Source: a virus. From it: a stretch of DNA of 64,000 nt. The stretch is from the UHGV virus genome UHGV-1558314; one strand, 5' to 3'. The translations under genes were made by a program, and so were the position numbers. The notes below the pieces were generated by a model. The model had not been told where the DNA came from. It saw only the letters and a program-made list of their open reading frames with translations, and made no database searches. Positions 10,842-58,111 of this stretch are shown piece by piece. Each line of letters starts with the position of its first letter. The first letter of the stretch is position 1.

Positions 10842-10882
10842 TGTAACAGTGCATTTAAGTGTTTTAACAGTTTTATGTATAA

Positions 10883-10911
10883 ATTGTACAACAATGGGCA
10901 AAATTTTGCAT
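10883..10911 (-). promoter_or_regulatory. Sigma70-like promoter (ATGCAA-N17-TACAAT) for RNR
   Basis: Plus attgtacaac at 10883-10892, ttgcat at 10906-10911. Confidence 0.5.
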
Positions 10912-24494: not shown

Positions 24495-24515
24495 GTGTAT
24501 AATTTGTATGAGATT

Positions 24516-24544
24516 ATTGTACAACATGCAAATGCATGTTGCAT
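24516..24544 (-). promoter_or_regulatory. Sigma70-like promoter (ATGCAA-N17-TACAAT)
   Basis: Plus attgtacaac at 24516-24525, ttgcat at 24539-24544. Confidence 0.5.
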
Positions 24545-24598
24545 TTGATGCAAAGTACTGCGTACACAACATAAAGTACAAGTTTGCTTTTGACAGAC

Positions 24599-27682: not shown

Positions 27683-27770
27683 GATTGAATTTGTTTGTTA
27701 TTGAAAGTGAAACATATATTTCTGTATAATATGTATAGAACTACTGATATTGATTGAATTGTGAAAATGG

Positions 27771-29060
27771 TCATTTTTCAATCTTTTTGAGCAATGCATG
27801 ACCGCAATCATAGACTTCGACGAAGCCTGAAGCAATCAATGAGTCAACATCTATAGAAGACGTTCGTATAATATGTTCGTGTGTCTTGATATTGTATAGA
27901 TGACACTGAACCCATGTTTTGACGACTTCATAATTTGGATACAATCGAGGGTCTTCTTTTGACAAATCAAGTTCTATGACATCATCAGTTTTGAGCTGCT
28001 CAGTTTTGTTTATGACATCTCTAATGTGCAGCAACATATCATATCTACAATCCCAGTCAAATATTGTTATACATCGATAGCCATTGCGTGCTGCAACATC
28101 TGTTTTGAATTTGTGAGCATACGCAGGTTTGGCGTCATTATCAACAGAATGCCCAGTTATGTAACCAAAGCCCTTTGTTGCATTGTGTGTAACAGTTGGA
28201 TTGATTTCAATTACAACAGCATCTTTTCGCAAATCATATAACAAGTTCTCAATAGGATGCTCAGTAACAAAATCAAGATTGCAAGAATGTTTCAAATCCC
28301 ATTGCCACGACATATTGATGTTTGATGTCAACCTTGCAGATGCTTGCGGCAATTGCAATGCATGTTCTACACCATAGCGTTCACGTAATGTTGCATGAGC
28401 CCTTTGCATATTTTGCATTGCGGGACCCCAATGCTCAAATTTTGTAGCATTTATCTTTGCAATTTTGTCTGGTAGCTTATTTGTACTATCTACACCATAT
28501 TTAATAAGACAACTGATGCGAATATTGTATTGTCGTTTTATTCGAGAATGTGACGTAGCACATCTACTAAATCGTTCAAATGGTGTTGATGCAATCAATG
28601 CATCTCGTTCTGACTCAAGAGCTTTGACATGTTCAAGCACTTCTGCTGGTACATTATCATAGTCAATCACATATTGCTGACGTGGTTGCGTTACATGAGT
28701 TTTGCCGTGTGTCTTAAGCTTATTGATTTGTATGCTATACTTTCTGCGTATATGTGGATGTCTTGATGCATCAGATTGCGCAATTTCATGCTCTCGTTGC
28801 TCTTCAAGTTTAGCTATTTGCTCAACAATAGCTGGTTCAATGTCTGGTTTGTCTGATATGACTATGTTTTTAAGCTCATCAAGACGCTTGTTGAGATATT
28901 TGACACGTCTTGTATATGTTATCTTTGCAACTTGATGGTTTGTATGATGCTTGCCTACTTGCTGTTCTGGTTGATTCAGCGTGTCATCAAGGCGTTGCTT
29001 AGCGAGCTCAAATTCATTATCAAGCCATGCTTTATGCGCATCAAATTCATCTTGTGTCAT
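27771..29060 (-). CDS. Homing-endonuclease-like protein, paralog 3
   Basis: VVIEINPTVTHNATKGFGY ... GYRCITIFDWDCRYD ... VEVYDCGHALL. Confidence 0.75.
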   Translation of the reverse strand: MTQDEFDAHKAWLDNEFELAKQRLDDTLNQPEQQVGKHHTNHQVAKITYTRRVKYLNKRLDELKNIVISDKPDIEPAIVEQIAKLEEQREHEIAQSDASRHPHIRRKYSIQINKLKTHGKTHVTQPRQQYVIDYDNVPAEVLEHVKALESERDALIASTPFERFSRCATSHSRIKRQYNIRISCLIKYGVDSTNKLPDKIAKINATKFEHWGPAMQNMQRAHATLRERYGVEHALQLPQASARLTSNINMSWQWDLKHSCNLDFVTEHPIENLLYDLRKDAVVIEINPTVTHNATKGFGYITGHSVDNDAKPAYAHKFKTDVAARNGYRCITIFDWDCRYDMLLHIRDVINKTEQLKTDDVIELDLSKEDPRLYPNYEVVKTWVQCHLYNIKTHEHIIRTSSIDVDSLIASGFVEVYDCGHALLKKIEK

Positions 29061-33457: not shown

Positions 33458-33560
33458 GTTCGTTATCGTATTTGTAAATTGTGAAATGTTGCTTTGTTTG
33501 ATTATAACTTGATATATGTATGTATATGATGACATCAAACATGTTGTTGACCAAAATCAA

Positions 33561-36600: not shown

Positions 36601-37562
36601 TCATAAGGCTTAGCATCTTCATTTGTGAAGTCAATGCCAAGCAAAGACATTGCTTGTTTTTTGTTTTCTTCTGAGAGTGCATCGAATGCAGTTGCAAGAC
36701 CGACATCGGTATAGTCACACCCAACTTCGTCAAGCAATGCTTCGACTTTCTGGATGTTTTCTACACCAACTTCATTAGCATCAGCATTGTTGTATGCCTC
36801 AATAAAACGTGATTGGTTTGTCATGGTAGTGAAATCTTCTATTGATTCGTTTATGAGTTGCTGTTTGAGTGCATCCAATGATGCTGAGCCAATCAATGCA
36901 TCAGGGAATAGCTTCTGCAACATGCCTGTACGTGCAAGCTCAATCAATTGGAGCATCAATGAGTTTGGCGAGTCTTCGTCATCTACAGATTCACAAATGA
37001 GAGTGTCTTTTGATTCATTAACTGAACCGACAAGATTGAACTCTGCTTCAGGAAATGACGGCTCGCATACTAAATCGTATGTAATCAACTTTAGTAGAGT
37101 CGTTGCACCTGTAGTAGGATTAACTATACCAAGAGCTCGACTTGATACAAACAATGGTGAGCCTGCAGCCACAACTGCCCATGCAATACGACCTGCTGGC
37201 GTATCAAGAATAGTAATCCAGCCTTCAAATCGTTGCTTATCAGGATTCCATTCAATACTGTCAATGCGGTGTGATACATTCCCATACTTCACAGTACGTC
37301 GCTTAACATGCTCAAGCTCGCCAAATAGACGCTTAGCTTTGATTGCTGATTGCAATGTTTGTACTTGCGCAAAATAATTTTCGAAATTGTATGTTCGACC
37401 ATTACGATTACGCTCGCCAATAGTTGCATATGTACCGAACAATCTACCAAGCGCGCCACTTGGCACATGTTCATCTACAGCTTCAGCAACAAATTGACAA
37501 TCCTGGCGGCTTTCTATAATAAGCTGCGCAGGCTTGCCTTTGTATGTTATTGGTTTTGCCAT
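33612..37562 (-). CDS. Prohead protease (T4 gp21 / S77-like) fused to a long acidic scaffold/internal-protein-like region (1316 aa)
   Basis: N-terminal NGRTYNFENY ... LFGELEHVKRR ... SHRIDSIEW ... ILDTPAGRIAWAVVAAGSPLFVSSRALG ... YDLVCEPSFP; downstream GSVNE, LINESIED, MSMVNEG, KFINEA, KIVNES, TFVNES, GFVNEN. Confidence 0.8.
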   Translation of the reverse strand: MAKPITYKGKPAQLIIESRQDCQFVAEAVDEHVPSGALGRLFGTYATIGERNRNGRTYNFENYFAQVQTLQSAIKAKRLFGELEHVKRRTVKYGNVSHRIDSIEWNPDKQRFEGWITILDTPAGRIAWAVVAAGSPLFVSSRALGIVNPTTGATTLLKLITYDLVCEPSFPEAEFNLVGSVNESKDTLICESVDDEDSPNSLMLQLIELARTGMLQKLFPDALIGSASLDALKQQLINESIEDFTTMTNQSRFIEAYNNADANEVGVENIQKVEALLDEVGCDYTDVGLATAFDALSEENKKQAMSLLGIDFTNEDAKPYDISKLDDAALTEFAKALEFEVEDKSIDDIKAAIEAELDSNLDKHNDIAKQYGIVECDEALNFDYLDAAWGALTDEVKTEIVEAAKVDDKDAVIAIKSFKDIPAEAQQPIIDAMLDKNLIEKELVNIDESADNKWDELSDDERKVILDKLSLSEFYRPNAKWQLIDKDHKLKIEAEFAADEAKHATLGEAWDSFTDDQRQSILSKHIGLPYNAKTKWAGIDIAHHAMLEKDIDAIDEAKAQDNEGKSFVSIWGTMSMLNRATALKAVQPDKSDEDCFQHAHDNEDALGKELVDALKKHLNIDEAQTVEVYDKNGDKITAELTGFNEDKVSFKYNGKESVAIKEGDKYMLYDGRYETVKALDEASDPAADWWYNASVADRNQLIEQIGKDKIGVEDAANATWEMFDNESRNAIAAAIRAQSTDESIEAPYDMSNGINKGDKIVVGAVKNVAGTTKIEVEVWPAGKPEQKFTLRFDDKKDPEYLALVDDCDESVDAWNAADVAARKTWLLSKNYLDADSEYYASQPYDSLPVDVQNFVKEFFEAPVDEAAVGDNIKIYDADGNEFEAVVNTIDNNEAGTRLTVTYGESTSGIVAEVDGKWTLVPASEPGKIVNESIVADKLYATYSDTDKSIIDKFYQDDIVKTCIKNIDPDKSTMDDKVAAAYDELIKAQKSAEAVDELEANKSLLIAYIAAQLQDEMVNEGKLSYKPKTAKFINEATEDNKPTPADVEQIIDGLVDASTITRAQADELVDAVSDAADLDKVENKAQLAEKIAETAEELGLDVDVEECMSMVNEGVDDNIREAVLKDKSYDDFDFRTVERDGSTISVVISKDDQLTGIEVAGDLTDANQKMLSDMLRTYLGAQATDECLTNIKHEIAALRRQTKQLATRYDAAGVAVLDENLQPIDHTPLYLKHMPTAYKYIYESLTPEQKSLIATQAAVRTFVNESDVAAFYRSRNWAAIKSYSTKQPVGFVNENVDGSGKSSLTPEQQRLVDLIRG

Positions 37563-46480: not shown

Positions 46481-47736
46481 TAACTGTCATACGACCAGTG
46501 ACCACAGTCATACACTGGCACAAATCCAGTGTCAAGCATTTCTTGCTCATTAAAGTCATCATCAAGCAAGTGTTCACCCGATTTTGTATTAACCCAGTGC
46601 TTCTTAATTGTGCATTCATCAACCGCAAAGGGATTAAGTACATTGTCAGTACAGTCAATGAACGCATCATTCAAATGCGCTTCAATGATATGAAGCACAA
46701 TTTCTTGGTCGTGCCAATCAAATATCATGAGTGGCGTGTAGCCACATGCAATTGCAAGTTGTTGCTTCCACCAATGATAGTTTGGCTATTTTGCTTCTGC
46801 AGCATTTCGTTTAAAGCCATACACGCTATTATGAGTATGCGTCGGGTTAACGTCAATTAGCAGATTGCCATAATACAGGTCATATGACGTTATGCCAACA
46901 CCATGTTCAAACTCAAAATGCACACCAAGATGTTCTTCAATGTATGATTGCCACCATCTGTTTGGCGCAGATATGATTTGCCCATTTGCTTGCATACATT
47001 TATTTGTCATGCAAAACCATGGCACACCGTAACGTTCCATACAGGTTTTTGAAATTGCAGCAAGCCATTCATCTTTGTCTCTATGCGGCCATGCATAACC
47101 ATAACGCAGACGGCATGTTTGTTGAGCTTTAGCAACGATTGGCGCTAAACGTTCACCGTATATTTCACGTTTAGTTGCGATGGCTTTGCGTGGATTAGTC
47201 CATCCAGCATCACCCCATCGCTCAAGCTTCGTTTGCTGAGATTTTTCAACAATCAGTTCAAGATTCTCACCATATTTTTGACGACGAGTTTGCATTGCTG
47301 CAACATAATCTGTAATGCATCTATGGCCATACAAACGTTCTTTTGTCGCACATTGAACATCTACTGGACCTTGTGGATAGCCATAGCGTTCCATATTCGT
47401 TTGACGAATATGTGCTTTATCGCCATATGAACTGCCGTAGCGTGCAACTTTAGTGGCAATTGTTTGCTTGATGTTGCCTGCTTTAGAACCATAACGAGCT
47501 TCTTTAGTTGCTACGCATTTTTGTTTGACTTCTGCTCTGTTCCAATTATGCTCAACGCCATGTTTACGAAGATGGCCAATTTTCATGTTGTACACGTTTT
47601 TGATATGACCATGAGATGTCTTACGTGGTGCATATCGTACAAATGGTGTTTCTGCAAGCAACTTATCTCGTTCAGCTTCAAGCTCTTTAATTCGAGCTTC
47701 AAGAGCTTCACCAGTCAAAGGCTCTACATGTTTCAT
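46480..47736 (-). pseudogene. Homing-endonuclease-like paralog 4 interrupted by a single in-frame TAG (46786-46788)
   Basis: ORFs 46786..47736 and 46480..46728 are in the same frame; intervening codons read *PNYHWWKQQLAIACGYTPLMIFDW and align with intact paralogs. Confidence 0.7.
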
Positions 47737-48360: not shown

Positions 48361-48390
48361 AAAAAGCTCAGCCAATTACGGCTGAGCTTT
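48357..48390 (-). terminator. Rho-independent terminator
   Basis: aaaaa agctcagcc aattac ggctgagcttt. Confidence 0.6.
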
Positions 48391-48437
48391 CATTGAGATG
48401 CAACTTTTACGTTGACAGCAAACCTAACTATGTTCGG

Positions 48438-49727
48438 TTATTCTTTTGGCAGAAGTTCAGCAATGCGTGACTGCAATTGCTCTTTCTGCTTCAAATAGCT
48501 GTCAAGAATTTGCTGATGAGCTGCATAGCCCTCTGATGTTGGGTCCATACTCTGCATTGTGACTTGAACTGCAGCAATGTCTGATTCGACATTGTTGAGC
48601 ACTGTCTGATATGCGTCGACTTGTGCAGATGCACGAATTGCAGCTTTCATTGCAGTGTCATAATGTTCGCGCCACATTGACTTGATGCATTCGATTTCTG
48701 GTGTGCTTACAGAAATTGACTGCAATGCTGCAATGAGTGCAACAATGCCGCCGTATACTGTAATGACGCCAGACTGAGTGTCAAGCATGTTGAAGTGATT
48801 GCCATCAACTGCGTATACAATGATAGGCGCAGATTGCAGCTTGACTGAATTGTCGAGAACTGCAAGCTTTGTGAACTGCTGCGCTACTGTAATGACTGCA
48901 TTGCAAATTGCCTCTGCAGTCTCAAATTCGCCTGCAACTTGCATGCTAACTTGATTGAGTTGCATATAAGTCTTGACTTTCTCAGCGAATTCAAGTGCAG
49001 TCATAACTTGCGAATCAAGCTCAACTGCATCTTGGCCAACAATGCGAACATGGCCGACAATTGTGTCAGCAAAGAATGCTTCAGTCTTTGGACAATACTG
49101 AACAAGAGACATCGCATCCATCAATGCAACAGATTCTGCAGATGGCTCAGATGCTGTAGCATACAGCAAATTACCATCAGATACAGTGAACCACTTGCCA
49201 ACTACAGGCAGACCCATGATGTCGCCTTCAATAATTGCAAGCACATGCTGGCAATCACCTGTAGCAATGATGTGCTCAGGATTTGCTGCATAGTAGATGT
49301 CTTTTGCCTGCTTAATGAGCGACTTCACCTCAGGGTACATGTCATAATTGTCAAGCACGCCATCAACTGCAATTGCTCGAATGATTGGCTCATCAGTTGA
49401 TGCAACATCTACTGCATCTTCGATTGCTGACGCAGCCCTTTGCATATTTGCAGAGCCATCACTCATCAAATCTTCCATGACAAGTGACGCCTTGAAACCA
49501 AAGCCATCTGCGCCAATTGCTGCTTTCTGTGATTTTGCAAATGCGCGTACAGCAGCATCTTTGCTATTTGCAGCGCTTTCCAAAATCATTGCAGCTTTTC
49601 GAAGAGTCAGACCAGACTTTTTGATTTGTGCAAGTGACTCATTGACAAAGTTTGCACCGCCAAAAGTCAATGCTTTGATGCCTTTGATACCTTGAACAAA
49701 TGCATCAACGTTTACAGTATGTTTCAT
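48438..49727 (-). CDS. Hypothetical protein (429 aa) with N-terminal FVNE site; candidate processed virion protein
   Basis: GGANFVNESLAQ about 27 aa from N-terminus. Confidence 0.75.
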   Translation of the reverse strand: MKHTVNVDAFVQGIKGIKALTFGGANFVNESLAQIKKSGLTLRKAAMILESAANSKDAAVRAFAKSQKAAIGADGFGFKASLVMEDLMSDGSANMQRAASAIEDAVDVASTDEPIIRAIAVDGVLDNYDMYPEVKSLIKQAKDIYYAANPEHIIATGDCQHVLAIIEGDIMGLPVVGKWFTVSDGNLLYATASEPSAESVALMDAMSLVQYCPKTEAFFADTIVGHVRIVGQDAVELDSQVMTALEFAEKVKTYMQLNQVSMQVAGEFETAEAICNAVITVAQQFTKLAVLDNSVKLQSAPIIVYAVDGNHFNMLDTQSGVITVYGGIVALIAALQSISVSTPEIECIKSMWREHYDTAMKAAIRASAQVDAYQTVLNNVESDIAAVQVTMQSMDPTSEGYAAHQQILDSYLKQKEQLQSRIAELLPKE

Positions 49728-49734
49728 AGTCTAC

Positions 49735-51225
49735 TTATGCCTTTTTAGATTTACGCTTTGCAGCAACTACGACTTCTGCTACGATAGCTTCTACAGTAGC
49801 TTCAGTTACAACAGACTTGTCTGCAACTTTTACAAGAGCTGCATGCAACTTGTAGTTGCCGACTTTGCTGAAAATGCACTTGAATTCTGTTGTTGCATTG
49901 TATTCTGCAGGTACTGCAAAACCACTGTCAGGACCCCATACACCACTATCTTCGAATGTCCAAGGCTGACCCTGTGAATCTGTTGCAGTGAATGTCACAT
50001 GACCATCTTCAGGTGCTTCTACAATTTCATATTGCAGCTGAACGCCATCAACACCAGCTGTGCCAACTACTTCAGTTGCAAGTGTTGCATTGATTGCAAC
50101 TTCTGTTGCAGGCTGAATGCTTGCAGGGACATCTACAGAAATCTTGTATTCTGATACTTCAGGCTGAACTGGCTCAGCAACAACTACTGTAGACTCTGTT
50201 TCAACAACTACACTGTCATCAGCAACCTTGGCAAGAACTGCATGCAATTTGTATGTGCCTGCCTTGCTAAAGATTACAGTGAACTTTGTAGTTGCATTGT
50301 ATTCTGCTGGAATGTCAAAGCCTACTGCAGGACCCCATGTGCCATTGTCGACAAACGTGTATTCCTCGCCAGTTGTGTCAGTAGCCTTGAATGTCACATG
50401 GCCATCTTCAGGTGCTTCGTCTACACCATAGCGGAACTGAACTTTGTCAACACCGACATCACCAACAGTCTTCGTTTTGAATGTTGCATCAAGCTCAACT
50501 TCAGTGTTTTCGATGATTGTTTCAGGCGCAGACATTTCAAACTCATACTCAGATACTGTTTGCACAGCTTGTTCAAGTTTGATGTTCTTTGTCTTGTTTG
50601 AAATCATAGTTTCACGACCAGCCTGGCTAACGTAGCCCTCTTTAGACACTTCCCAGACAATTTCTTCGCCTGACAAAACAGTCAACGAATTGCGAACTTC
50701 ACCATTCATCTTGACAACTGCATCTGCAGGTTCTACATTGATTGTCAGTGTAGCTTTGCTGAGCTCAACAAGCTCCACTACTTGAATGACATCATGGTTT
50801 GTGAGCGTGATTGTGCCCTCCTGAGATTCATAGCCCTCTTTCGACACTTCCCACTTAATTGGAATGCCTGCAGGCACATTCTCAAGCATCTTTGTAGCCT
50901 CACCATTGATTTCTACGTGAGCATCTTCAGGCACAGGCTGAATTGTGATGCTGAACTTATCTTTGCCAGGTTCAGGGTCTGGTCCTGGTCCTGGGTCATC
51001 ACCAGTAATTGCAGGGATGATAGTGTTTTCGATGACTTTCTGAGCTTCTGCAGTTGTGCCATAGAATTTGAGCGTTTTCTTGGCTTCTTCTACAGACATT
51101 TTCTCAAGATTGTCTGCAAGATATGTCAGACCAGTGACTGCAGCAATTTTCTGCCGCATTTCTGGGCTAATGACTACACCAGTAGATTTGACTACTGGAG
51201 CAGCTTGTTTTTGTTTCTTTGCCAT
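49735..51225 (-). CDS. Ig-like-repeat protein (about 496 aa); possible capsid decoration protein
   Basis: Two about 110-aa repeats (VSEYEFEMSAPETI...YKLHAVLAKVAD and VSEYKISVDVPASI...YKLHAALVKVAD) plus two shorter repeats; ATG at 51223-51225 (MAKKQKQ). Confidence 0.7.
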   Translation of the reverse strand: MAKKQKQAAPVVKSTGVVISPEMRQKIAAVTGLTYLADNLEKMSVEEAKKTLKFYGTTAEAQKVIENTIIPAITGDDPGPGPDPEPGKDKFSITIQPVPEDAHVEINGEATKMLENVPAGIPIKWEVSKEGYESQEGTITLTNHDVIQVVELVELSKATLTINVEPADAVVKMNGEVRNSLTVLSGEEIVWEVSKEGYVSQAGRETMISNKTKNIKLEQAVQTVSEYEFEMSAPETIIENTEVELDATFKTKTVGDVGVDKVQFRYGVDEAPEDGHVTFKATDTTGEEYTFVDNGTWGPAVGFDIPAEYNATTKFTVIFSKAGTYKLHAVLAKVADDSVVVETESTVVVAEPVQPEVSEYKISVDVPASIQPATEVAINATLATEVVGTAGVDGVQLQYEIVEAPEDGHVTFTATDSQGQPWTFEDSGVWGPDSGFAVPAEYNATTEFKCIFSKVGNYKLHAALVKVADKSVVTEATVEAIVAEVVVAAKRKSKKA

Positions 51226-51315
51226 AAGATATTGTGAATTTGGTTGTTTATTCTTAACAAAATATGTACATACAGATGCAACAGATGATATGTCAGATAC
51301 ACAAAGCTGCATAAA

Positions 51316-51355
51316 ATGACCAGACTTGCAAATAAATTTAAGCAAGTCTGGTCAT
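51316..51355 (-). terminator. Hairpin terminator downstream of polymerase C-part
   Basis: atgaccagacttgc aaataaatttaa gcaagtctggtcat. Confidence 0.6.
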
Positions 51356-51369
51356 CAGTTTTGATTGCA

Positions 51370-52662
51370 CTACAACAATGACGGCACTCGTTGAGTTTCA
51401 AGTGGGTCGCTGACATTGATGCCTGTGTATGCAACAAGTCGTTGTATTGGGCCAAGTACGAGTTTTTCGAACATGAGTCGTTTGTTCATTGGCGGCACAT
51501 CTGGCATATACTTCGGTGTCGGCATTTCGCCTGGTGCAAAGCCAAATGCATCGCAATATTGACGAGAGCCAATTGGGATATTTGACAAATCTGACTTTGC
51601 TCTGTCAACAAAGTAGTAGAACACTCGACCGCCTTCAATCAATGGGTATCGTGTTTCCAATCCATGAGCTTTTACAAGACGATTATGCCAACAACATGCC
51701 CTGTACTGAGGCAGTACACCTTTTGCTAACTGCCATTCGCCATCATAGCTTAACACATAGTCATGATACTTGTTTGCATTGACATATGCACAAAGTTTTT
51801 CCAAGTCTTGCTCAGCTTCAAAGCGTTTCCATAATTTCTGTATGAGCTTTGGATATGTCGCAGAAGTCAATTCACCTCTGAACATTTTTTTGAATGCATA
51901 ATCAAGCATTTGCCTAACAAGCATTGATGAGCCTGTTTGAATAAGTTCGATGCCCTTACCTTGAATATGCTCAGTAGGGTCTTCAAATACTCGACCATCT
52001 ACATATATTTGAGACTTCAAATACTTTTTCTTTTGGGCAAATAATGCAGTATCAGAAATCGTCTCAAGGTCGAACATTAGCACAGAATCTCCATGACGCT
52101 TTGCAAGGTCATTTGCATATGACCTATTGAACAGTTCTTCCATACGATATTTGAATATCGCAAGAATCAAGTCATACCAATTTTTGCCTGTGTAACCAAT
52201 TGACTTAACTGTCGGCTCAAAGTGAATGTACAAAGAGTCTGTGTCAATATACAGCACTTTGTCTTCATAGGGTTCTTGCTTTGGCGACACAGACAAATCA
52301 AAATTGCCTTTCAATTTGGGGTCATTGCGCAGCTTTTCATGCAATTCATAATCACACCACCATTTATTGTTGAGATAGTCATTTGCTACTCGTTCGCCAA
52401 AGTGAATGAAGTTACGCCCTTCTGCAGTAATTGATTCTGCAACTGCCATATTGAAGAAGTGATAGAATCGATTACTTGTCGCACCATAAATACTGTTCCT
52501 TAGTGTTTTGAACGTCACCTGCAATGACGCATGTTTAAGCGACTCTTGTATTGCAAAGCCACGTAATTCAAATAGACGCTCAGTAGACAACTGACTCAAA
52601 TCGCCAGTTAAATCTACTCCATCTATTTCAATTTTTGACATGTCTATCTGAGCTTCTGCCAT
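51370..52662 (-). CDS. Family-B DNA polymerase, C-terminal part (motifs B and C)
   Basis: FKTLRNSIYGA (KxxxNSxYG) and LYIDTDSLYI (DTDS). Confidence 0.9.
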   Translation of the reverse strand: MAEAQIDMSKIEIDGVDLTGDLSQLSTERLFELRGFAIQESLKHASLQVTFKTLRNSIYGATSNRFYHFFNMAVAESITAEGRNFIHFGERVANDYLNNKWWCDYELHEKLRNDPKLKGNFDLSVSPKQEPYEDKVLYIDTDSLYIHFEPTVKSIGYTGKNWYDLILAIFKYRMEELFNRSYANDLAKRHGDSVLMFDLETISDTALFAQKKKYLKSQIYVDGRVFEDPTEHIQGKGIELIQTGSSMLVRQMLDYAFKKMFRGELTSATYPKLIQKLWKRFEAEQDLEKLCAYVNANKYHDYVLSYDGEWQLAKGVLPQYRACCWHNRLVKAHGLETRYPLIEGGRVFYYFVDRAKSDLSNIPIGSRQYCDAFGFAPGEMPTPKYMPDVPPMNKRLMFEKLVLGPIQRLVAYTGINVSDPLETQRVPSLL

Positions 52663-52801: not shown

Positions 52802-53629
52802 TTAGAATGGCAGGTCACCATCGTCACCTGCAGCGCCAAATTCAGCTGCAATGTCATATACCAACGTCATTGCGATTCGCAAATCGCGCTTCTTAGACTT
52901 CAGGCGCATGATATCATGACCAGAATTGTTTGTGATGACTGAACATTCAAACTCTTCATTGCCATCAATAAATGACAACATTGATTTGTGAATTGTGATT
53001 GGCGATAAATCAGATGGGTAATTTGCATCAATCACATATTCAAAGTTGTTGTTCTTGGCAATTAGTCCTCGTTCAGTCGTACGAATCTCAATGCCGGGCA
53101 ATTCCTTATCACCAGTATTCAATGAGCCATACGATGACATGATGCCAAAGTGATTTGACGTCAAATCGAGTTTTCTTAGATTTGTTGTGCTGTCAAACAA
53201 CATTGACATATCATTGTCAGACAGCTCAAAGTAGCCAAGTGATGGCATTGAACAAACCTGATTGATTTTGAGCTGATTGTTTGAGATTACAATGAGCTCT
53301 GCAATTGTATCTGTGCCAATTTGTTTGACATAGATTTCAATCATTGCAGATGAGCCAAATGCAGCAAGTACTCGATTGTTAAACTGTGTGCCGTTGTAAA
53401 TGAGCGCCTTGACTGTGACATCTTTGAGCGTCGACTCATAATGCTCACAAATATCAAGAACATTGAGCGTCTGTGATTTTACAAAGCTGCTGTTGCCAGC
53501 ATCAGTTCTGATTCGCTGGTCATTAAGTGAAAAGCTAAGCTTGCCATCGCACTTTAATGATGATGCAAACAATGCTCGCAGCATATCAATGTTTGCATTG
53601 CGTAACGTAATTTTGTTCAAAGTTTCCAT
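52802..53629 (-). CDS. Hypothetical protein (275 aa) with SSB-like acidic C-terminal tail
   Basis: C-terminus ...GAAGDDGDLPF resembles the DDDIPF SSB tail; body not recognisably OB-fold; function unknown. Confidence 0.65.
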   Translation of the reverse strand: METLNKITLRNANIDMLRALFASSLKCDGKLSFSLNDQRIRTDAGNSSFVKSQTLNVLDICEHYESTLKDVTVKALIYNGTQFNNRVLAAFGSSAMIEIYVKQIGTDTIAELIVISNNQLKINQVCSMPSLGYFELSDNDMSMLFDSTTNLRKLDLTSNHFGIMSSYGSLNTGDKELPGIEIRTTERGLIAKNNNFEYVIDANYPSDLSPITIHKSMLSFIDGNEEFECSVITNNSGHDIMRLKSKKRDLRIAMTLVYDIAAEFGAAGDDGDLPF

Positions 53630-53697
53630 CTTGTATCTATGTTGTTGATTTTCAATTTAATATATTGAACAACATTTGTTGACATTTTGCAACATTG

Positions 53698-54072
53698 TCA
53701 TCGATTGTCGCCTGACCCATGCAGTACGCCTCGTAATTTTCGAGACTGTAGTTTCTGAATGTTAAGCTGACAAATGTCAGTTAAGCTGTAGCCCAAATCA
53801 TGTGCAAGAGTTGCAGCATACCACATGACATCGCTAAGCTCTTTTGCGATTTCCTTGCGAATGTCTTCATTGTCAAAATCACCATTCTTGTCTCGAATGA
53901 CTTTTTTGACTTTGTCTGCAACTTCGCCTGCTTCACCCGTCAAGCCAAGCGTTGGATAGACAATTGCAGCTGATTTAGGATACACTGCGCTATCAAGTGC
54001 AGCAGTCTGATATTCATCAATGGTTGAAATACAAGTGTGGTCAATTACACCATGTTCATCTCGTTTAAGCAT
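53698..54072 (-). CDS. mazG: MazG-like nucleotide pyrophosphohydrolase
   Basis: LTGEAGEVADKVKK ... KELSDVMWYAATLAHDLGYSL. Confidence 0.75.
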   Translation of the reverse strand: MLKRDEHGVIDHTCISTIDEYQTAALDSAVYPKSAAIVYPTLGLTGEAGEVADKVKKVIRDKNGDFDNEDIRKEIAKELSDVMWYAATLAHDLGYSLTDICQLNIQKLQSRKLRGVLHGSGDNR

Positions 54073-54073
54073 A

Positions 54074-54565
54074 TCATTTACGTTTTTGTTTGACTCTTAA
54101 TCGTTTTTGCATAAATGCTCTTGTAGCTTCACCAAAAGCCATCTCGTCTCGTTCGCCACCACAAAGCTTTGCAAGCTTATTGAATGTGTCTTGGTCAATC
54201 ATTGTGTACGTTGAGTTGTTGACCACATGCAATGCAAACTGAATCAGCGGTGCGCCTGGCTGCAAGCAGAACGGCTCTTTGCCCGCATTGTACACTGCAA
54301 GATGAATCTCGCCATGATAGTCTGAATCTACAAACTCACTTGTTTTGATGATAAGATGATTTCGTGAAATGCCCGACTTATTGTAGGCAATCAATGCATG
54401 ACAGGCAGGCACAAGTGCTTTGATGCCAGATGGAATTGCAATGCCCTCACCAGGTTGCAGCATTGTTTGCACAAAATCATTGGGTATGCAAAAGTCCCAT
54501 GCGCCAGATTCTGCTGTTGACTTAAAAGGACTTTCTACATTTCTGCATTTTGCAAAGAATAACAT
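54074..54565 (-). CDS. dUTPase / dCTP deaminase superfamily protein
   Basis: GAWDFC (motif 1-like), IAIPSGIKAL, VDSDYHGEI (motif 3), PGAPLIQFAL (motif 4-like). Confidence 0.75.
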   Translation of the reverse strand: MLFFAKCRNVESPFKSTAESGAWDFCIPNDFVQTMLQPGEGIAIPSGIKALVPACHALIAYNKSGISRNHLIIKTSEFVDSDYHGEIHLAVYNAGKEPFCLQPGAPLIQFALHVVNNSTYTMIDQDTFNKLAKLCGGERDEMAFGEATRAFMQKRLRVKQKRK

Positions 54566-54588
54566 ATTAAGTATGTGTTTGTATGTTG

Positions 54589-54939
54589 TTAGTACATTTC
54601 TCGTTTAACAAGAGCTTTGCGTTTTGAGCGTAACCCTGCCCTATTACGTAATTCTACTGACCAATCACGAATCATTTGCCATGCAATCCCACCACGTTGA
54701 ATACCACCGTGCTTGAACATTTCATTGCAAATACCTTGAATAAACACCGCATCAGACTTTGTCAATGCGTCAACAATTTGACCATGGTTGTCTTCTGTCT
54801 TGACATCATTACAGAGCTTAAGTTCATCTACTGAAAGTTCGCCAAGCAGCTCATAGTAGTATATGAGAGCTTTGCGTGCGGCAATTGCTTTTCTTGAATT
54901 GCCAGAATAAGACAAAGTTACATGTTTGCTCATATTCAA
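54589..54939 (-). CDS. Hypothetical protein (116 aa)
   Basis: ORF track; no motif. Confidence 0.55.
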   Translation of the reverse strand: MNMSKHVTLSYSGNSRKAIAARKALIYYYELLGELSVDELKLCNDVKTEDNHGQIVDALTKSDAVFIQGICNEMFKHGGIQRGGIAWQMIRDWSVELRNRAGLRSKRKALVKREMY

Positions 54940-54959
54940 TTATTGTTATTATATGTTGA

Positions 54960-54988
54960 TATTGTACAACATGTGTTAACTTTTTGCA
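54960..54988 (-). promoter_or_regulatory. Sigma70-like promoter (ATGCAA-N17-TACAAT)
   Basis: Plus attgtacaac at 54960-54969, ttgcat at 54983-54988. Confidence 0.5.
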
Positions 54989-56175
54989 TGACCACAATCA
55001 TACACCGCAACATAGCCAGCATCAATCATCTCTTGCTCATCTTGTCCGCAATCTTCAATATGTTCTTTTGTCTTCAAATGACACCAGTGTTTGCGAATTG
55101 TTGACTTGTCATCTGACAATTGCGGATTGAGTGCGAAGTCAGTTGAGTCTACTGGTTCACCTGCAAGATGCTTTCTAATGACATCAATGACAACATCAAA
55201 TGGCATCCAGTCAAACACTGTAATGCAAGTGTAGCTGTGTTTGATAGCAAGTTGTGTTTTGTTAAAATGGTTGTCATATGGTCGTTGCCAATTATGATTT
55301 GCATTGAACACAATATTTGCAAAACTACGCGTGCTATTATGAGAAATAGTTGGGTTAAGTTCAATTAGCAACTTATGCGATTTGCAAACAATGTCATATG
55401 ACAATGACGTGTTCTCAAATGTAAATTCTTGCTCAAAATGCACATCAAGGTTATCAAATAGCATGTTAAGCCTTGTGCATATTTTTGTATTGTGTGCAGA
55501 CTTTGCTTTAGATTTTGCTCTGCATTGAGGCAATTGGCATGGCCACACTACACCATGACGTGACAATGTTGTTGCACGAATTGCGTCAAGATTCGTTGAT
55601 GGATTGCCATATCGAGCTATTCGAGTTTGCCTTGCTTTGTCTATATTGCCTGGGCCTGCATTGCCCCATCGCTGCAACTTTGTTTGTCGAGCTTGTTCAT
55701 GATTGCTGTAATATGGGTCTCCATATCGTTCAAGCTTTGTTTGCTTTAACTTACTCATGTCGCCAAGCCCATTGCCATACTTAGCACGCTTTGTTTCTAT
55801 GCCTTTCTTTAGATTGCCTCGTTTGTTGCCATATTTTGCAATGTTGTGTGCATTACGTTTTTCAATGTCACCAAACCCATTGCCATATCGTGCAAATTTT
55901 GTTGCTTGCGCTTTTTCAAAATTGACTGCTAATGTGCCATAACGAGCATACTTAGTTGCTTTGCCCTTATCAACGACTTCTTTACGATGCAATGCAGCTT
56001 CAACACCATATTTTCGCAAATTTGTAATTTTTGCATTGTATCGTCGTCTAATTGTTGCATGAGTGTTGTTACGAGACCCTGTTCTGACATATTCAGTTGC
56101 AGCAAGTTCAGCATCACGTAACTGCTCAAGTTCTGCAATTCGTTGTTCAAGTTCAGCGCCTACAAGTGGTTTCAT
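54976..56175 (-). CDS. Homing-endonuclease-like protein, paralog 5, between the two polymerase ORFs
   Basis: Seven about 17-aa repeats with (K/R)YG core; LLIELNPTISHNSTRSF ... SYTCITVFDW ... VAVYDCGH. Confidence 0.75.
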   Translation of the reverse strand: MKPLVGAELEQRIAELEQLRDAELAATEYVRTGSRNNTHATIRRRYNAKITNLRKYGVEAALHRKEVVDKGKATKYARYGTLAVNFEKAQATKFARYGNGFGDIEKRNAHNIAKYGNKRGNLKKGIETKRAKYGNGLGDMSKLKQTKLERYGDPYYSNHEQARQTKLQRWGNAGPGNIDKARQTRIARYGNPSTNLDAIRATTLSRHGVVWPCQLPQCRAKSKAKSAHNTKICTRLNMLFDNLDVHFEQEFTFENTSLSYDIVCKSHKLLIELNPTISHNSTRSFANIVFNANHNWQRPYDNHFNKTQLAIKHSYTCITVFDWMPFDVVIDVIRKHLAGEPVDSTDFALNPQLSDDKSTIRKHWCHLKTKEHIEDCGQDEQEMIDAGYVAVYDCGHAKS

Positions 56176-56183
56176 GTGTTGTT

Positions 56184-57689
56184 TTACAATTTGATTGCGC
56201 CTCTACGAGCAAGCTCTTCTTCAATCAATCGAACATGATTGTTAGAATACCAGAACTGAATTTTTTTGTGATAATTACGCTTGTCTCCAAGTTCTTCCTG
56301 TACTGCTTTGTACATGCTTTTTTCATGATTGTCATACAAGCAGTCATTAACGGACACAAAGTACTCTGGCAATGACTTGTAATGCGCAATTTCATCAGGA
56401 TTTGTCAGACGTCTGATAAAGTTATCCGGTGATACATTGCATGATTTCATTGAACTTGGATAGAGTGAATTTGCATCAACACAAACAACTTTATGAGCCC
56501 AATGGTTAAATGGTTGCTTCACAAAGCCACCTTCAAATGCATGCACAACATTTTCTGGACCGCCTTGAGCACATACGACTTTGCCACCATATTTGTTGTA
56601 CAAATATGTCATCATGACGCCCTCAGATTGCTTAACTGGGCCTTGACAGTGGTTCATATCAATGTTTGACACATTTGACAAGCCCATCACATTTGATATC
56701 AAGTCAGTTTTTGCAGCAATCATCGCATTGACCATCGTATCGACAGCATTATATGCAATGAACGTGCATGGATGATACAAATACAGCTCTTTAAGTGTAC
56801 AATCATAGGGCAGCTTACCTACACCGAACATACGATGTGCAATATAGTCAAGTCGCAATGACTCTTTTTGCCACACTGAATAGTCGTATGTGTCCATGAG
56901 CTGCATGTAGTCATCAATGTACTTGTGATATGGCATACCATTGCCCCAGACAGTTCTGCCAACTGGAGATGCCAATGCTAAATCAATATTGTGCATTGCG
57001 CATCGATTTTTGACATAGATGTTGTCGAAGCCATTGATGTTCCAGCCTGTCAATGCAGGAATGTTTTTGAAGAGCTTAGTCACCCAAAAATGCAACAATT
57101 CATGCTCATTTGCATGTTGAAAGATTTTGACAGTTGGATGTTCTTTCAAATACGCAGCAAAGCAATGTTGACCCATGTACTCTTGAATGATGCCATTGAC
57201 AAACTCAAATGCATCATCCAGTGTTGGGTTTTGTTTGCCACAGCTTTTGCGCAAATCATCATCATTCAACAAGTCAACAGTAGTCTGAATGACACAATTG
57301 CATTGTTCATCGCATGTACTTATTGCATTAATGGGCATTTCAGCTTTGTCAGGCTTTGGAAAGCCATTGCCAATTTCAGTCTCAATATCGTAAAAGTATA
57401 ACTTTGGTCTACGATAAGCAAACAATTCAACTTTGTCAGCTTCAGGCAATTCAAATAAGAATTGCAGCAAGTCAAATTGATTGAATCGTTTTGCTGTGAC
57501 TCGAGTCACAGGCAATTTGCGCCAATCTTGAATATCTGCATATTGCGGCTCTACATGGTCTGATATTTGCCATACTGGAAATTGATATGGCTGTTCACAG
57601 ACTGGGTATGTTTTGATGTCAATGCCACCTTGCTCATTAACGTATGAAACTTCAATGCCATGTGACAAATATGCTACGTCGACAATCAT
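56184..57689 (-). CDS. Family-B DNA polymerase, N-terminal part (3'-5' exonuclease motifs + polymerase motif A)
   Basis: LYFYDIETE (Exo I), NINGFDNIYV (Exo II), YNAVDTMV (Exo III), VCVDANSLYPSS (motif A); ATG at 57687-57689. Confidence 0.9.
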   Translation of the reverse strand: MIVDVAYLSHGIEVSYVNEQGGIDIKTYPVCEQPYQFPVWQISDHVEPQYADIQDWRKLPVTRVTAKRFNQFDLLQFLFELPEADKVELFAYRRPKLYFYDIETEIGNGFPKPDKAEMPINAISTCDEQCNCVIQTTVDLLNDDDLRKSCGKQNPTLDDAFEFVNGIIQEYMGQHCFAAYLKEHPTVKIFQHANEHELLHFWVTKLFKNIPALTGWNINGFDNIYVKNRCAMHNIDLALASPVGRTVWGNGMPYHKYIDDYMQLMDTYDYSVWQKESLRLDYIAHRMFGVGKLPYDCTLKELYLYHPCTFIAYNAVDTMVNAMIAAKTDLISNVMGLSNVSNIDMNHCQGPVKQSEGVMMTYLYNKYGGKVVCAQGGPENVVHAFEGGFVKQPFNHWAHKVVCVDANSLYPSSMKSCNVSPDNFIRRLTNPDEIAHYKSLPEYFVSVNDCLYDNHEKSMYKAVQEELGDKRNYHKKIQFWYSNNHVRLIEEELARRGAIKL

Positions 57690-57700
57690 ATTATTATCTT

Positions 57701-58111
57701 TTAGAATAGAGATATTGTACAACAATTTGATTCAGGTTGCCATTCTACAATATGCGCATCAAAGTGTTTGTTAAGCCAATGTGCAAGTATGTGTCTATGA
57801 CAAAATGCAGATGGTCTGCACCAACATAACAATACAATGTCTCGTTCGCCTGCAAAAATCTTTATGCGATGCAGCATCAAACTTATCTGTGACAATGCAG
57901 CGTCAAGTTTTGCTGCATATTGCTCTGCATATTGTGCATTGTCAAGCAAGCCTGCTTTATGCAAACGAACAAGTGACATGTAATCAGGCATGACGTCAGT
58001 CCATGTAAAATCTGCTATGAAGCCCTTAGGCTTTGTTGCAGACACTTGAACAAGAAATGCGTTATCAGGCAGATGCCTGCATGCATAATATGAAGTCAAG
58101 ATTCTTGTCAT
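57701..58111 (-). CDS. Hypothetical protein (136 aa), DUF488-like
   Basis: DIVLLCWCRPSAFCHRHILAHWL resembles the conserved DUF488 core; tentative. Confidence 0.55.
   Translation of the reverse strand: MTRILTSYYACRHLPDNAFLVQVSATKPKGFIADFTWTDVMPDYMSLVRLHKAGLLDNAQYAEQYAAKLDAALSQISLMLHRIKIFAGERDIVLLCWCRPSAFCHRHILAHWLNKHFDAHIVEWQPESNCCTISLF
57714..57742 (-). promoter_or_regulatory. Sigma70-like promoter (-10 TACAAT) for polymerase N-part
   Basis: Plus attgtacaac at 57714-57723; -35-like ttgcca at 57737-57742. Confidence 0.45.

What the first reader, a model, noticed from the sequence alone, without database searches (positions are those of the whole stretch)
49735..51225. Intragenic tandem duplication encoding Ig-like repeats
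Two about 330-bp DNA repeats encode about 110-aa Ig-like modules, plus two shorter repeats, after a basic N-terminus. This resembles Hoc-type decoration proteins, and the repeat structure allows domain-number variation by recombination.
Basis: seen in the sequence. Interest (0 to 1): 0.35.

Follow-up and report, generated by a model that had tools for sequence, protein, structure and literature searches.

The report
Modular Ig-like surface fibre gene of phage
This is a real accessory gene of an uncultured T4-like phage that encodes a small helical anchor followed by four beta-sandwich "beads" (two short, two long, each pair an old internal duplication). It is most likely a Hoc/pb10-style virion decoration or adhesion fibre, which makes it interesting but not extraordinary.

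Summary
The repeats are real. Gene 49735-51225 (-), 496 aa, holds two 66-aa repeats (48% identical, z=17) and two 133-aa repeats (58% aa and 61% nt identical, z=60). The units are therefore 198 and 399 bp, not about 330 bp. AlphaFold models all four as beta-sandwiches: full length pLDDT 84, long unit alone 96. The short units are the PF25641/PEGA-like domain, known as the distal domain of crAss001 head fibre gp29. The long unit is an unnamed domain, also found in bacterial SLH, T9SS and cellulosome surface proteins. Its nearest solved folds are only generic Ig-like/E-set ones (TM 0.5-0.58). The protein is not a homologue of T4 Hoc. Its conserved non-Ig part is an N-terminal four-helix domain behind a basic arm, as in T5 pb10, and it ends in a conserved polybasic tail. 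Relatives carry 0-2 short and 0-3 long units. One 94%-identical relative has lost exactly one long unit. All domains are under purifying selection (dN/dS about 0.1). The gene has its own terminator and promoter-like bracket and is missing from the same site in a cultured relative, so it is accessory. Best reading: a virion-surface decoration or adhesin fibre, probably on the head. The location is inferred, not shown. Interest is modest.

The parts
51316..51355 (-). Terminator-like hairpin just downstream of the PolB C-terminal gene. It has 14-bp perfect arms (ATGACCAGACTTGC / GCAAGTCTGGTCAT) and a 12-nt loop, followed by TTTTAT. It separates the target gene from the replication gene upstream.
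   Evidence: The sequence was read directly. Equivalent hairpins sit at the same place in the relatives L002, L004, L006 and L008.
51261..51268 (-). Promoter-like element TACATATT, 36-43 nt upstream of the ATG.
   Evidence: TACATATW occurs 9 times in the window against 4.4 expected. Eight of the nine are on the coding strand. By my reading of their flanks, most lie 20-60 nt upstream of a start codon, including those of the major capsid protein (27728-27735) and the tail sheath (33513-33520). ACATAT-type motifs are also present upstream of the orthologues in L002, L004, L006, L008 and L009. Function is inferred only.
49735..51225 (-). Complete coding sequence: 496 aa plus the stop codon.
   Evidence: ORF list and translation. 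Orthologues are 91-97% identical. dN/dS is about 0.10-0.14 against three close relatives.
51178..51225 (-). Basic, disordered N-terminal arm, aa 1-16 (MAKKQKQAAPVVKSTG).
   Evidence: pLDDT is below 50 for residues 1-15. The sequence was read directly.
51001..51177 (-). Conserved N-terminal four-helix domain, aa 17-75, with the motif TGLTYLADNLEK. This is the proposed virion anchor.
   Evidence: AlphaFold helices at 21-31, 36-40, 45-55 and 59-74, with pLDDT about 80. It is the segment shared by every family member whatever follows it: the six-sequence alignment A2 has 9 invariant columns and the domain scan finds it in all 16 family members. It has no Pfam, PHROG, NCBIfam or PDB match.
50962..51000 (-). 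Pro/Gly/Asp-rich flexible linker, aa 76-88 (DDPGPGPDPEPGK).
   Evidence: pLDDT is below 50 for residues 77-87.
50764..50961 (-). Short repeat 1, aa 89-154. A PF25641 (Head_fiber_dimeric) / PEGA-like beta-sandwich.
   Evidence: Pfam PF25641 scores 6.9e-22 over two stretches. PEGA scores 21.3 bits against a cutoff of 20.8. AlphaFold places strands at 90-151.
50566..50763 (-). Short repeat 2, aa 155-220. Same domain type as short repeat 1, and the closest match to the crAss001 gp29 distal domain.
   Evidence: PDB sequence hit to 7qof_j, gp29 residues 50-116, E = 5.9e-9. tblastn hits to crAss-like phages at 39-43% identity.
50161..50559 (-). Long repeat 1, aa 223-355. A 133-aa beta-sandwich from an unnamed domain family.
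   Evidence: Self-alignment. AlphaFold pLDDT about 90. Matched by an HMM built from the domain alignment.
49762..50160 (-). Long repeat 2, aa 356-488. Same domain family as long repeat 1.
   Evidence: Domain model with pLDDT 96.4 and pTM 0.86. Foldseek against the PDB gives TM 0.5-0.58 to C3 MG domains, transglutaminase C-barrels, CARDB and cohesin. 315 representative clusters match at E <= 1e-3.
49738..49761 (-). Conserved disordered polybasic C-terminal tail, aa 489-496 (AKRKSKKA).
   Evidence: pLDDT is below 50 for residues 487-496. Similar tails occur in P0006, P0007, P0013-18, P0021 and P0022 despite different middle domains.
48438..49727 (-). Downstream 429-aa gene of unknown function, starting 7 nt after the target's stop codon. 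It is probably co-transcribed but is not dependent on the target.
   Evidence: ORF list and junction sequence. It is always adjacent in the main clade. In Chryseobacterium phage MA9V-2 a homologue is present without the target gene.
48362..48391 (-). Strong terminator-like hairpin (13-bp stem followed by a T-run) that closes the two-gene unit.

Best explanation
The gene encodes an accessory, non-essential virion-surface fibre of an uncultured T4-like phage, whose host is probably in the Bacteroidota.

Proposed build:
- A short basic arm plus a conserved four-helix N-terminal domain docks the protein onto the particle. The most likely site is the acidic centre of major-capsid-protein hexamers, as with T5 pb10.
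- A Pro/Gly-rich hinge follows the anchor.
- Four independently folding beta-sandwich beads project outwards: two PF25641/PEGA-like units, then two 133-aa units of an unnamed surface-protein domain.
- The fibre ends in a floppy polybasic tip.

Proposed function: the beads and the tip give weak, multivalent, reversible adhesion to glycans or polyanionic surfaces such as host envelope, capsule or mucus. This would raise the encounter rate with hosts, as proposed for Hoc and for the crAss001 head fibres.

Proposed evolution: the string of beads changes by intragenic duplication, deletion and module swapping, while the anchor and the tail are kept.

Shown here: the repeats, the folds, the domain identities, purifying selection, copy-number variation, the accessory status and the separate transcription-unit signals. 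Inferred: virion incorporation, the head as attachment site, which end is the anchor, and the ligand.
For: - Repeats and folds.
- Structural matches are strings of Ig-like/E-set domains. They include phage tail and structural proteins and Hoc proteins of Acinetobacter phages.
- The short units are PF25641 (6.9e-22). The only solved-structure sequence match found is the outward-facing domain of crAss001 head fibre gp29 (paper PMC10172136, read).
- The long unit recurs in bacterial extracellular proteins carrying SLH, T9SS sorting, cohesin/dockerin, CBM_4_9 and Big_2 domains. It is therefore a surface-exposed module.
- The layout of a small alpha-helical N-terminal domain, a linker and Ig-like domains matches T5 pb10. 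The pb10 helical N-terminal domain is positively charged and binds the acidic hexamer centre (PMC5292684). In the target, residues 1-75 have a net charge of about +4, counted from the sequence.
- The N-domain and the basic tail are kept across relatives whose middle parts differ: N-S-S-L-L, N-S-S-L, N-S-S-L-L-L, N-L-L, N-S-L and N-S-S-other.
- dN/dS is 0.04-0.27 in every domain for the three window-versus-relative comparisons.
- The gene is absent between PolB-C and the homologue of the 429-aa gene in cultured phage MA9V-2. It sits in other contexts elsewhere. This is accessory-cassette behaviour, like Hoc.
- It has its own terminator and promoter-like bracket, and the same TACATATW element stands before the capsid and sheath genes.
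- There is no signal peptide or membrane segment (sequence read directly). From my own knowledge (Fraser et al. 2006, J Mol Biol 359:496), phage Ig-like domains occur essentially only in virion structural proteins.
Against: - There is no proteomic, structural or genetic evidence that the protein is in the virion.
- The N-terminal domain has no detectable similarity to any known capsid-binding domain. It shows nothing against the gp29 N-terminus (hhalign probability 0.1%) and nothing against a PDB profile search.
- PF25641 repeats also occur in a protein embedded in a tail-fibre/baseplate cluster (P0010). The best BFVD hit is annotated as a tail protein.
- The gene sits next to replication genes rather than inside the head module.
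- A TACATATW-like motif with one mismatch also precedes PolB-C, so late timing is not established.
- One close relative (L006/L007) carries a stop codon just before the basic tail. The tail may therefore be dispensable.
Confidence: 0.45

Rival explanations
1. It is a virion fibre or adhesin, but it is attached to the tail, neck or baseplate (a side fibre or whisker-like appendage) rather than to the capsid. The N-terminal helical domain would plug into a tail or neck protein.
For: - PF25641 repeats occur in P0010, which lies among Gp34_trimer, Gp10_C and BppL_N genes of a 285-kb phage.
- The top BFVD structural hits are annotated as tail or baseplate proteins.
- The P0022 orthologue sits next to a 592-aa protein with collagen-like repeats.
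- The P0016 and P0021 relatives replace the long units with about 400 aa of unassigned sequence. By eye this looks like a beta-helix, as in depolymerase-type fibres. This was not tested.
Against: - Tail fibres are usually trimeric with beta-rich or coiled-coil anchors. Here the predicted protein is a beads-on-a-string chain with low inter-domain confidence (pTM 0.41) behind a small helical domain. That is the pb10/Hoc pattern.
- The only experimentally placed PF25641 domain is on a head fibre.
- The proteins with tail context lack the N-terminal domain that defines this family.
Confidence: 0.25
2. It is not a virion component. It is an intracellular or cell-associated accessory protein made during infection. 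For example, it could be a nucleic-acid or envelope-binding factor that uses its basic termini, linked to the neighbouring replication genes or to the co-transcribed 429-aa protein.
For: - It is located directly after the split DNA polymerase and before a gp55-like sigma factor.
- Both termini are basic (sequence read directly).
- It is only 7 nt from a conserved gene of unknown function.
- No virion data exist.
Against: - A terminator-like hairpin separates it from PolB-C.
- The gene is missing from the same site in MA9V-2 while the neighbours remain. It is therefore not part of a conserved replication function.
- Its domains are those of extracellular or surface proteins.
- There is no signal peptide with which to reach the cell surface.
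Confidence: 0.1
3. The repeats are a chance or compositional artefact, or the ORF is not a real gene.
For: Tandem Repeats Finder reports no repeat at the DNA level.
Against: - Protein repeat z-scores are 17 and 60.
- Pfam hit at 6.9e-22.
- Homologues exist in many independent assemblies.
- dN/dS is about 0.1.
- AlphaFold pLDDT is 84 for the full length and 96 for the long unit.
Confidence: 0.01

Closest known systems
crAss001 gp29, dimeric head fibre protein (HFD); Pfam PF25641 Head_fiber_dimeric
   Same: The two short repeats are this domain: PF25641 at 6.9e-22, and 39-43% identity to gp29 residues about 50-116. In gp29 this is the outward-facing beta-sandwich. Both proteins have a non-Ig N-terminal part followed by the beta-sandwich.
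   Different: The capsid-binding N-terminus of gp29 (residues 1-58) shows no similarity to the N-domain here. gp29 has one copy of the domain and nothing else (122 aa). The target has two copies, two 133-aa domains and a basic tail. The host phage is a T4-like myovirus-type genome, not a crassvirus.
T4 Hoc (highly immunogenic outer capsid protein)
   Same: A non-essential accessory protein built from a tandem string of Ig-like beta-sandwich domains plus one non-Ig anchoring part, in a T4-like genome. Some Hoc proteins appear among the structural matches (ranks 23 and 46).
   Different: No sequence homology (E = 0.29). Hoc domains are I-set/PKD, whereas here they are PEGA-like and an unnamed family. 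Hoc's helix-rich anchor is C-terminal (PMC5292684). Here the conserved helical domain is N-terminal and the C-terminus is an 8-residue basic tail.
T5 pb10 decoration protein
   Same: The order of parts is the same: a small, positively charged alpha-helical N-terminal domain, then a linker, then Ig-like domain(s) exposed to solvent (PMC5292684; model).
   Different: No sequence similarity was detected to any PDB chain with the N-domain profile. Structural similarity of the two helical domains was not tested. pb10 has a single Ig-like domain and no basic tail.
PEGA domain (PF08308) of bacterial S-layer and surface proteins
   Same: Short repeat 1 just passes the PEGA gathering score (21.3 against 20.8 bits). 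Relatives score better (7e-9). The P-[AE]-D-A motif followed by an N-G position mirrors the PEGA motif (my reading of the sequence).
   Different: PF25641 fits far better than PEGA, and the context is a phage protein.
Unnamed 133-aa surface-protein domain, with weak similarity to NCBIfam 'choice-of-anchor M' NF038134 and TIGR03769
   Same: The long repeats align well with 315 representative clusters, sharing the motif VTFKATDS..TF.N.G.WGP..GF.LPA.Y.ATT. Up to 8 copies occur per protein, in proteins with SLH, T9SS, cohesin/dockerin, CBM and Big_2 domains.
   Different: The hits fall below the curated cutoffs of the named models (23.7 against 55 bits, and 20.3 against 30.9 bits). No Pfam family passes threshold. 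No solved structure is closer than TM about 0.58.

Membership tests
T4 Hoc family | Detectable sequence homology to Hoc, with I-set/PKD-type Ig domains | tested here: not met
   BLASTP against T4 Hoc gives E = 0.29. Hoc hits I-set and PKD. The target hits neither.
T4 Hoc family | Tandem Ig-like beta-sandwich domains forming an extended fibre | tested here: met
   Four beta-sandwich domains with pLDDT 84-96, and low pTM (0.41), which I read as flexible inter-domain arrangement. Foldseek matches to Ig-like/E-set strings. 'Ig-like' holds only in the broad sense.
T4 Hoc family | C-terminal capsid-binding domain | tested here: not met
   The C-terminus is an 8-aa disordered basic tail. The conserved globular non-Ig domain is N-terminal.
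T4 Hoc family | Binds the centre of major-capsid-protein hexamers on the mature head | not testable with these tools
   This needs virion proteomics, cryo-EM or binding assays. No multimer prediction tool was available.
T4 Hoc family | Accessory, dispensable gene | tested here: met
   The gene is absent from the syntenic site in Chryseobacterium phage MA9V-2. It is found in other genomic contexts. Naturally truncated variants exist. Dispensability in the strict genetic sense was not tested.
crAss001 gp29 head fibre (HFD) family | PF25641 Head_fiber_dimeric distal domain | tested here: met
   6.9e-22, 77.5 bits against a cutoff of 30, in two copies. PDB 7qof_j at E = 5.9e-9.
crAss001 gp29 head fibre (HFD) family | N-terminal capsid-binding region homologous to gp29 residues 1-58 | tested here: not met
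   hhalign of the N-domain profile against gp29 gives probability 0.1% and E = 0.44.
crAss001 gp29 head fibre (HFD) family | Dimer seated in the pocket of winged hexons of a T=9 crassvirus capsid | not testable with these tools
   Oligomeric state and capsid geometry are unknown. The host genome is T4-like.
T5 pb10-type decoration proteins | Small alpha-helical, positively charged N-terminal capsid-binding domain followed by exposed Ig-like domain(s) | tested here: inconclusive
   The architecture matches: helices at 21-74, a basic arm at 1-16, and net charge of about +4 over residues 1-75 (sequence; pb10 description). No sequence similarity was found. Structural superposition was not run.
PEGA domain (PF08308) | Score above the Pfam gathering threshold | tested here: met
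   21.3 bits against 20.8, which is marginal. Relatives reach E = 7e-9. PF25641 is the better description.
NCBIfam choice-of-anchor M (NF038134) / TIGR03769 | Score above the curated cutoff | tested here: not met
   23.7 bits against 55, and 20.3 bits against 30.9.

The most novel reading that the evidence does not exclude
The gene is a founding example of an undescribed family of modular phage surface fibres in uncultured T4-like phages. The family would be defined by three things: a new alpha-helical anchor domain (motif TGLTYLADNLEK), a conserved polybasic C-terminal tip, and an exchangeable cassette of beta-sandwich or other unassigned modules between them. The cassette includes an unnamed 133-aa domain shared with bacterial S-layer, T9SS and cellulosome proteins. 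Gain and loss of whole domains is visible between genomes that are 94-96% identical. This suggests ongoing tuning of fibre length or of ligand range.
Probability: 0.4. Interest if true: 0.45.

Novelty: new variant of a known kind. Interest (0 to 1): 0.3.

Why it matters
Ig-like decoration and adhesion proteins are thought to decide where phages linger, for example on mucus, host capsules or epithelia, and they are used as display scaffolds. This gene adds three things:
- A new helical anchor and polybasic tail framing interchangeable beads.
- An unnamed 133-aa domain linking phage fibres with bacterial S-layer, T9SS and cellulosome surface proteins.
- A natural series of variants with one, two or three long beads, which could be used to test whether fibre length or valency matters.

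It does not change any concept. It extends the known Hoc/pb10/gp29 theme to an uncultured clade of T4-like phages.

Tried and rejected
- **DNA similarity to known phages.** Megablast of the locus against 50,697 phage records found nothing. tblastn of the long repeats also found nothing. No cultured phage carries this gene.
- **Family libraries.** PHROGs gave no hit for the target or for the 429-aa neighbour.
- **N-terminal domain searches.** A profile search of the big protein database with the N-terminal domain returned nothing, so that search was wasted. A profile search of PDB sequences returned only noise, such as Meis homeobox and a dockerin at E about 1.
- **The 429-aa partner.** It had only two database homologues and no PDB, Pfam or NCBIfam match. 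Its fold is therefore unknown.
- **Partner dependence, rejected.** I considered that the target and the 429-aa gene form an obligate pair. MA9V-2 has the partner without the target.
- **Cohesin reading, rejected.** I considered that the long unit is a cohesin, because cohesin appears among the fold hits and in co-occurring proteins. The match is TM 0.50 at rank 15, no better than MG, CARDB or transglutaminase domains.
- **Diversifying selection, rejected.** I considered diversifying selection on the distal beads. dN/dS is 0.04-0.27 in every domain for the three window-versus-relative comparisons.
- **Promoter timing, undecided.** I tried to use the TACATATW motif to call the gene 'late'. The motif precedes the capsid and sheath genes, but a one-mismatch copy also precedes PolB-C.
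Full report

The finding lies in one minus-strand ORF, 49735..51225, encoding 496 aa from the ATG at 51225. A longer in-frame extension to 51345 would start inside the terminator hairpin of the upstream gene. It is not conserved in more distant relatives, which begin with MK... or MAK... directly before the conserved helix.

A BLOSUM62 self-comparison shows two outstanding diagonals, at offsets of 133 aa and 66 aa.
- Long copies: aa 223-355 and 356-488, which is window 50161-50559 and 49762-50160. They are 58% identical over 130 ungapped positions. The local score is 383 against 33 +/- 6 for shuffled sequence (z = 60).
- Short copies: aa 89-154 and 155-220. They are 48% identical (z = 17).

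The long unit is 399 bp / 133 aa, not about 330 bp / 110 aa. At the DNA level the copies are old. The long units are 61% identical and the short units about 53% identical. Third codon positions are near saturation, and the longest exact run is 17 nt. This is why Tandem Repeats Finder reports nothing and the repeat finder returns only short seeds at spacings of 399 and 198. The basic N-terminus is there, and so is a basic C-terminus (AAKRKSKKA).

**2. Anatomy and folds**

AlphaFold2 with an 18-sequence alignment gives mean pLDDT 83.9. The predicted parts are:
- A disordered basic arm, aa 1-15.
- A four-helix domain, aa 21-74.
- A disordered Pro/Gly/Asp linker, aa 77-87.
- Two small beta-sandwiches, aa 90-151 and 157-216.
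- Two larger beta-sandwiches, aa 226-350 and 359-482.
- A disordered tail, aa 487-496.

pTM is low (0.41), which I read as beads on a string rather than a compact multi-domain protein.

The short units are Pfam PF25641 'Head_fiber_dimeric' (6.9e-22). They are marginally PEGA as well (21.3 against 20.8 bits). The only solved-structure match by sequence is crAss001 gp29, residues 50-116 (7qof_j, E = 5.9e-9). In the crAss001 atlas, gp29 residues 1-58 bind the winged-hexon pocket. Residues 58-118 form a beta-sandwich of CATH class 2.60.40.1120 that projects outwards (PMC10172136).

The long unit has no Pfam family. It gives sub-threshold NCBIfam hits to 'choice-of-anchor M' and TIGR03769. Modelled alone with a 30-sequence alignment, it reaches pLDDT 96.4 and pTM 0.86. 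Foldseek against the PDB finds only generic relatives at TM 0.5-0.58 and 17% identity or less. These are complement C3 MG domains, transglutaminase C-terminal barrels, CARDB and a cohesin. The full-length model matches strings of such domains in the PDB, namely transglutaminases, integrin alpha legs and C3/CD109. In BFVD it matches phage tail and structural proteins and two Hoc proteins.

'Ig-like' holds only in the broad architectural sense.

**3. How widespread are the parts?**

An exhaustive HMMER scan of 1.84 billion representative proteins with long unit 2 gave 315 clusters at E <= 1e-3 and 154 at E <= 1e-10. With my HMM, up to 8 copies occur per protein. Six top hits carry SLH domains, a T9SS sorting domain, dockerin, cohesins, CBM_4_9 or Big_2. 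The long unit is therefore a module of extracellular or surface proteins, shared between bacteria and phages. Its signature is VTFKATDS..TF.N.G.WGP..GF.LPA.Y.ATT.

**4. The family and its domain-number variation**

The protein database returned 24 homologues. Fifteen of them, plus the query, share the N-terminal domain with the motif TGLTYLADNLEK. Most also end in a short Lys/Arg-rich tail.

With HMMs for the three modules (N = N-terminal domain, S = short unit, L = long unit), the architectures are:
- N-S-S-L-L: the query and P0001. P0002 has the same layout with an internal deletion.
- N-S-S-L: P0003 and P0007.
- N-S-S-L-L-L: P0004.
- N-L-L: P0006.
- N-S-L: P0022.
- N-S-S followed by about 400 aa of unassigned sequence: P0013 to P0021.

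Pairwise identities and a neighbour-joining tree of the L units pair the query's L1 with its L2, and P0004's L1 with its L2. They do not group units by position. This suggests lineage-specific duplications, although the margin is small (57% against 55% identity to P0006 L2). In contrast, S1 and S2 are positionally orthologous across P0004, P0007 and P0016.

Close relatives also vary.
- **L006/L007 (94% nt identity).** These retain L1 but lack L2. The deletion ends at equivalent inter-domain positions. The tail-coding DNA is still present, but a GAA-to-TAA change precedes it.
- **L008 (96% nt identity).** This has an in-frame 93-nt deletion inside L1, between ACTG microhomologies. It is a single contig, so an assembly artefact cannot be excluded.
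- **L011 (IMG/VR, 174.6-kb contig, 94.6% nt identity).** This keeps N-S-S-L-L.

dN/dS is 0.10-0.14 overall in the three window-versus-relative comparisons and 0.04-0.27 in every domain. Both duplicated beads are therefore functional and there is no diversifying selection.

Domain-number variation is thus real. However, the present copies are too diverged to recombine homologously with any ease.

**5. Genomic setting**

The window is part of a T4-like genome. Recognisable genes are the portal, gp2, a gp4-like gene, the tail sheath, a gp23-like capsid protein, a prohead protease, a gp55-like sigma factor and a split family-B polymerase. The genome is only distantly related to cultured phages. 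The portal is about 32% identical to those of Chryseobacterium phage MA9V-2 and Sphingomonas phage PAU.

The target follows the polymerase C-terminal gene, but a 14-bp perfect hairpin plus T-run separates them (51316-51355). It is followed 7 nt later by a conserved 429-aa gene, and then by a strong terminator (48362-48391).

A TACATATT element lies 36-43 nt upstream of the ATG. TACATATW occurs 9 times in the window against 4.4 expected, 8 of them on the coding strand. By my reading of their flanks, most lie 20-60 nt before a start codon, including those of the capsid and sheath genes. Related ACATAT motifs stand upstream of the orthologues. A one-mismatch copy precedes the polymerase gene, so timing cannot be inferred.

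The order PolB-C, target, 429-aa gene is conserved in L002, L004 and L015. In cultured MA9V-2 the target is simply missing between PolB-C and the homologue of the 429-aa gene. Other family members sit next to a terminase gene (L009) or next to a collagen-like 592-aa gene (L013). The gene behaves as an accessory cassette.

**6. What it most likely is**

The evidence in favour of a virion-surface fibre is:
- It has surface-type beta-sandwich modules.
- It has no signal peptide.
- It is accessory, yet under purifying selection.
- It keeps a conserved terminal domain while the bead cassette is exchangeable.

From my own knowledge (Fraser et al. 2006), phage Ig-like domains are essentially confined to structural proteins.

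The order of a small basic alpha-helical N-terminal domain, a linker and exposed Ig-like domains is that of T5 pb10. The positively charged helical domain of pb10 docks on the acidic hexamer centre (PMC5292684). The one experimentally located PF25641 domain is on a head fibre.

I therefore favour a capsid decoration or adhesion fibre anchored by its N-terminus (confidence about 0.45). A tail- or neck-attached fibre is the main rival (0.25). Its support is that PF25641 repeats occur in a tail-fibre cluster and that tail proteins top the BFVD list. A non-virion role is a minor rival (0.1).

The conserved polybasic tip is unexplained. It could add electrostatic adhesion to polyanions. It could instead be the real anchor. 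It is lost in L006/L007.

**7. Comparison with known families**

- **T4 Hoc.** The protein works like Hoc but is not a member. There is no homology, the domain types differ and the anchor polarity is opposite.
- **crAss001 gp29.** It shares one domain with gp29 but not the capsid-binding part.
- **T5 pb10.** It resembles pb10 in layout only, with no detectable sequence similarity.

It is best filed as a new variant of the known kind 'modular Ig-like phage surface protein'. It has a new anchor domain and an unnamed bead domain.

**8. Verdict**

Novelty is moderate and there is no mechanistic surprise. Interest is 0.3.

Noticed in passing
window 51370-52662 and 56184-57725 (-), with 52802-56175 between them: The family-B DNA polymerase is split into separate genes for the N-terminal (exonuclease) part and the C-terminal part. 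About 3.5 kb lies between them, holding a DUF7487/homing-endonuclease-like ORF, dUTPase, MazG and an unknown ORF. The same split is seen in the relatives L002, L004 and L015, and in Chryseobacterium phage MA9V-2, where a TnpB gene lies in the gap.
   Followed up: partly
window 54950-56180: The HEG-like ORF 54976-56175 (DUF7487) is absent from the 94.6%-identical IMG/VR relative L011. In L011 the alignment jumps from window position 56181 to 54949. This is presence/absence of a mobile element inside the split polymerase locus.
   Followed up: partly
window 51330-51341, compared with L006 at about 668-679: The 12-nt loop of the terminator hairpin after PolB-C is exactly inverted between the window (TTAAATTTATTT) and the relatives L006/L007 (AAATAAATTTAA). 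The 14-bp arms are identical. This looks like a flip by recombination between the inverted arms.
   Followed up: partly
window 7620-10901 (-): The ribonucleotide reductase large subunit carries an Intein_splicing hit at aa 338-517 (6.8e-7, below the Pfam cutoff), so it probably contains an intein.
   Followed up: no
window 33612-37562 (-): The T4-type prohead protease domain (S77, aa about 10-243) is the N-terminus of a 1316-aa ORF. Relatives have 1393-1621-aa versions. This is an unusually large fusion, and the C-terminal 1000 aa are unassigned.
   Followed up: no
window 46786-47736, 54976-56175, 27771-29060 and 23475-24581 (-): Several ORFs related to DUF7487, homing endonucleases or HNH endonucleases are scattered through both the structural and the replication modules.
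   Followed up: no
window 48438-49727 (-): A conserved 429-aa protein with a coiled-coil C-terminus has no Pfam, PHROG, NCBIfam or PDB match. It is always downstream of the target in this clade, and it is also present in MA9V-2 (as a 461-aa hypothetical protein) next to the sigma factor gene. Its function is unknown.
   Followed up: partly
window-wide; sites at 672, 7555, 14199, 16188, 18404, 27735, 33520 and 51268 (-): TACATATW is enriched (9 against 4.4 expected), strand-biased and, by my reading of the flanks, mostly positioned 20-60 nt upstream of start codons. Three sites are preceded by TTTTGCA. It is a candidate promoter element of this phage.
   Followed up: partly
upstream regions of most genes, for example 51226-51260: By eye, start codons are preceded by A/T-rich sequence with no obvious Shine-Dalgarno motif. 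Together with Chryseobacterium and Tenacibaculum phages among the nearest cultured relatives, this hints at a Bacteroidota host. This was not tested formally.
   Followed up: no
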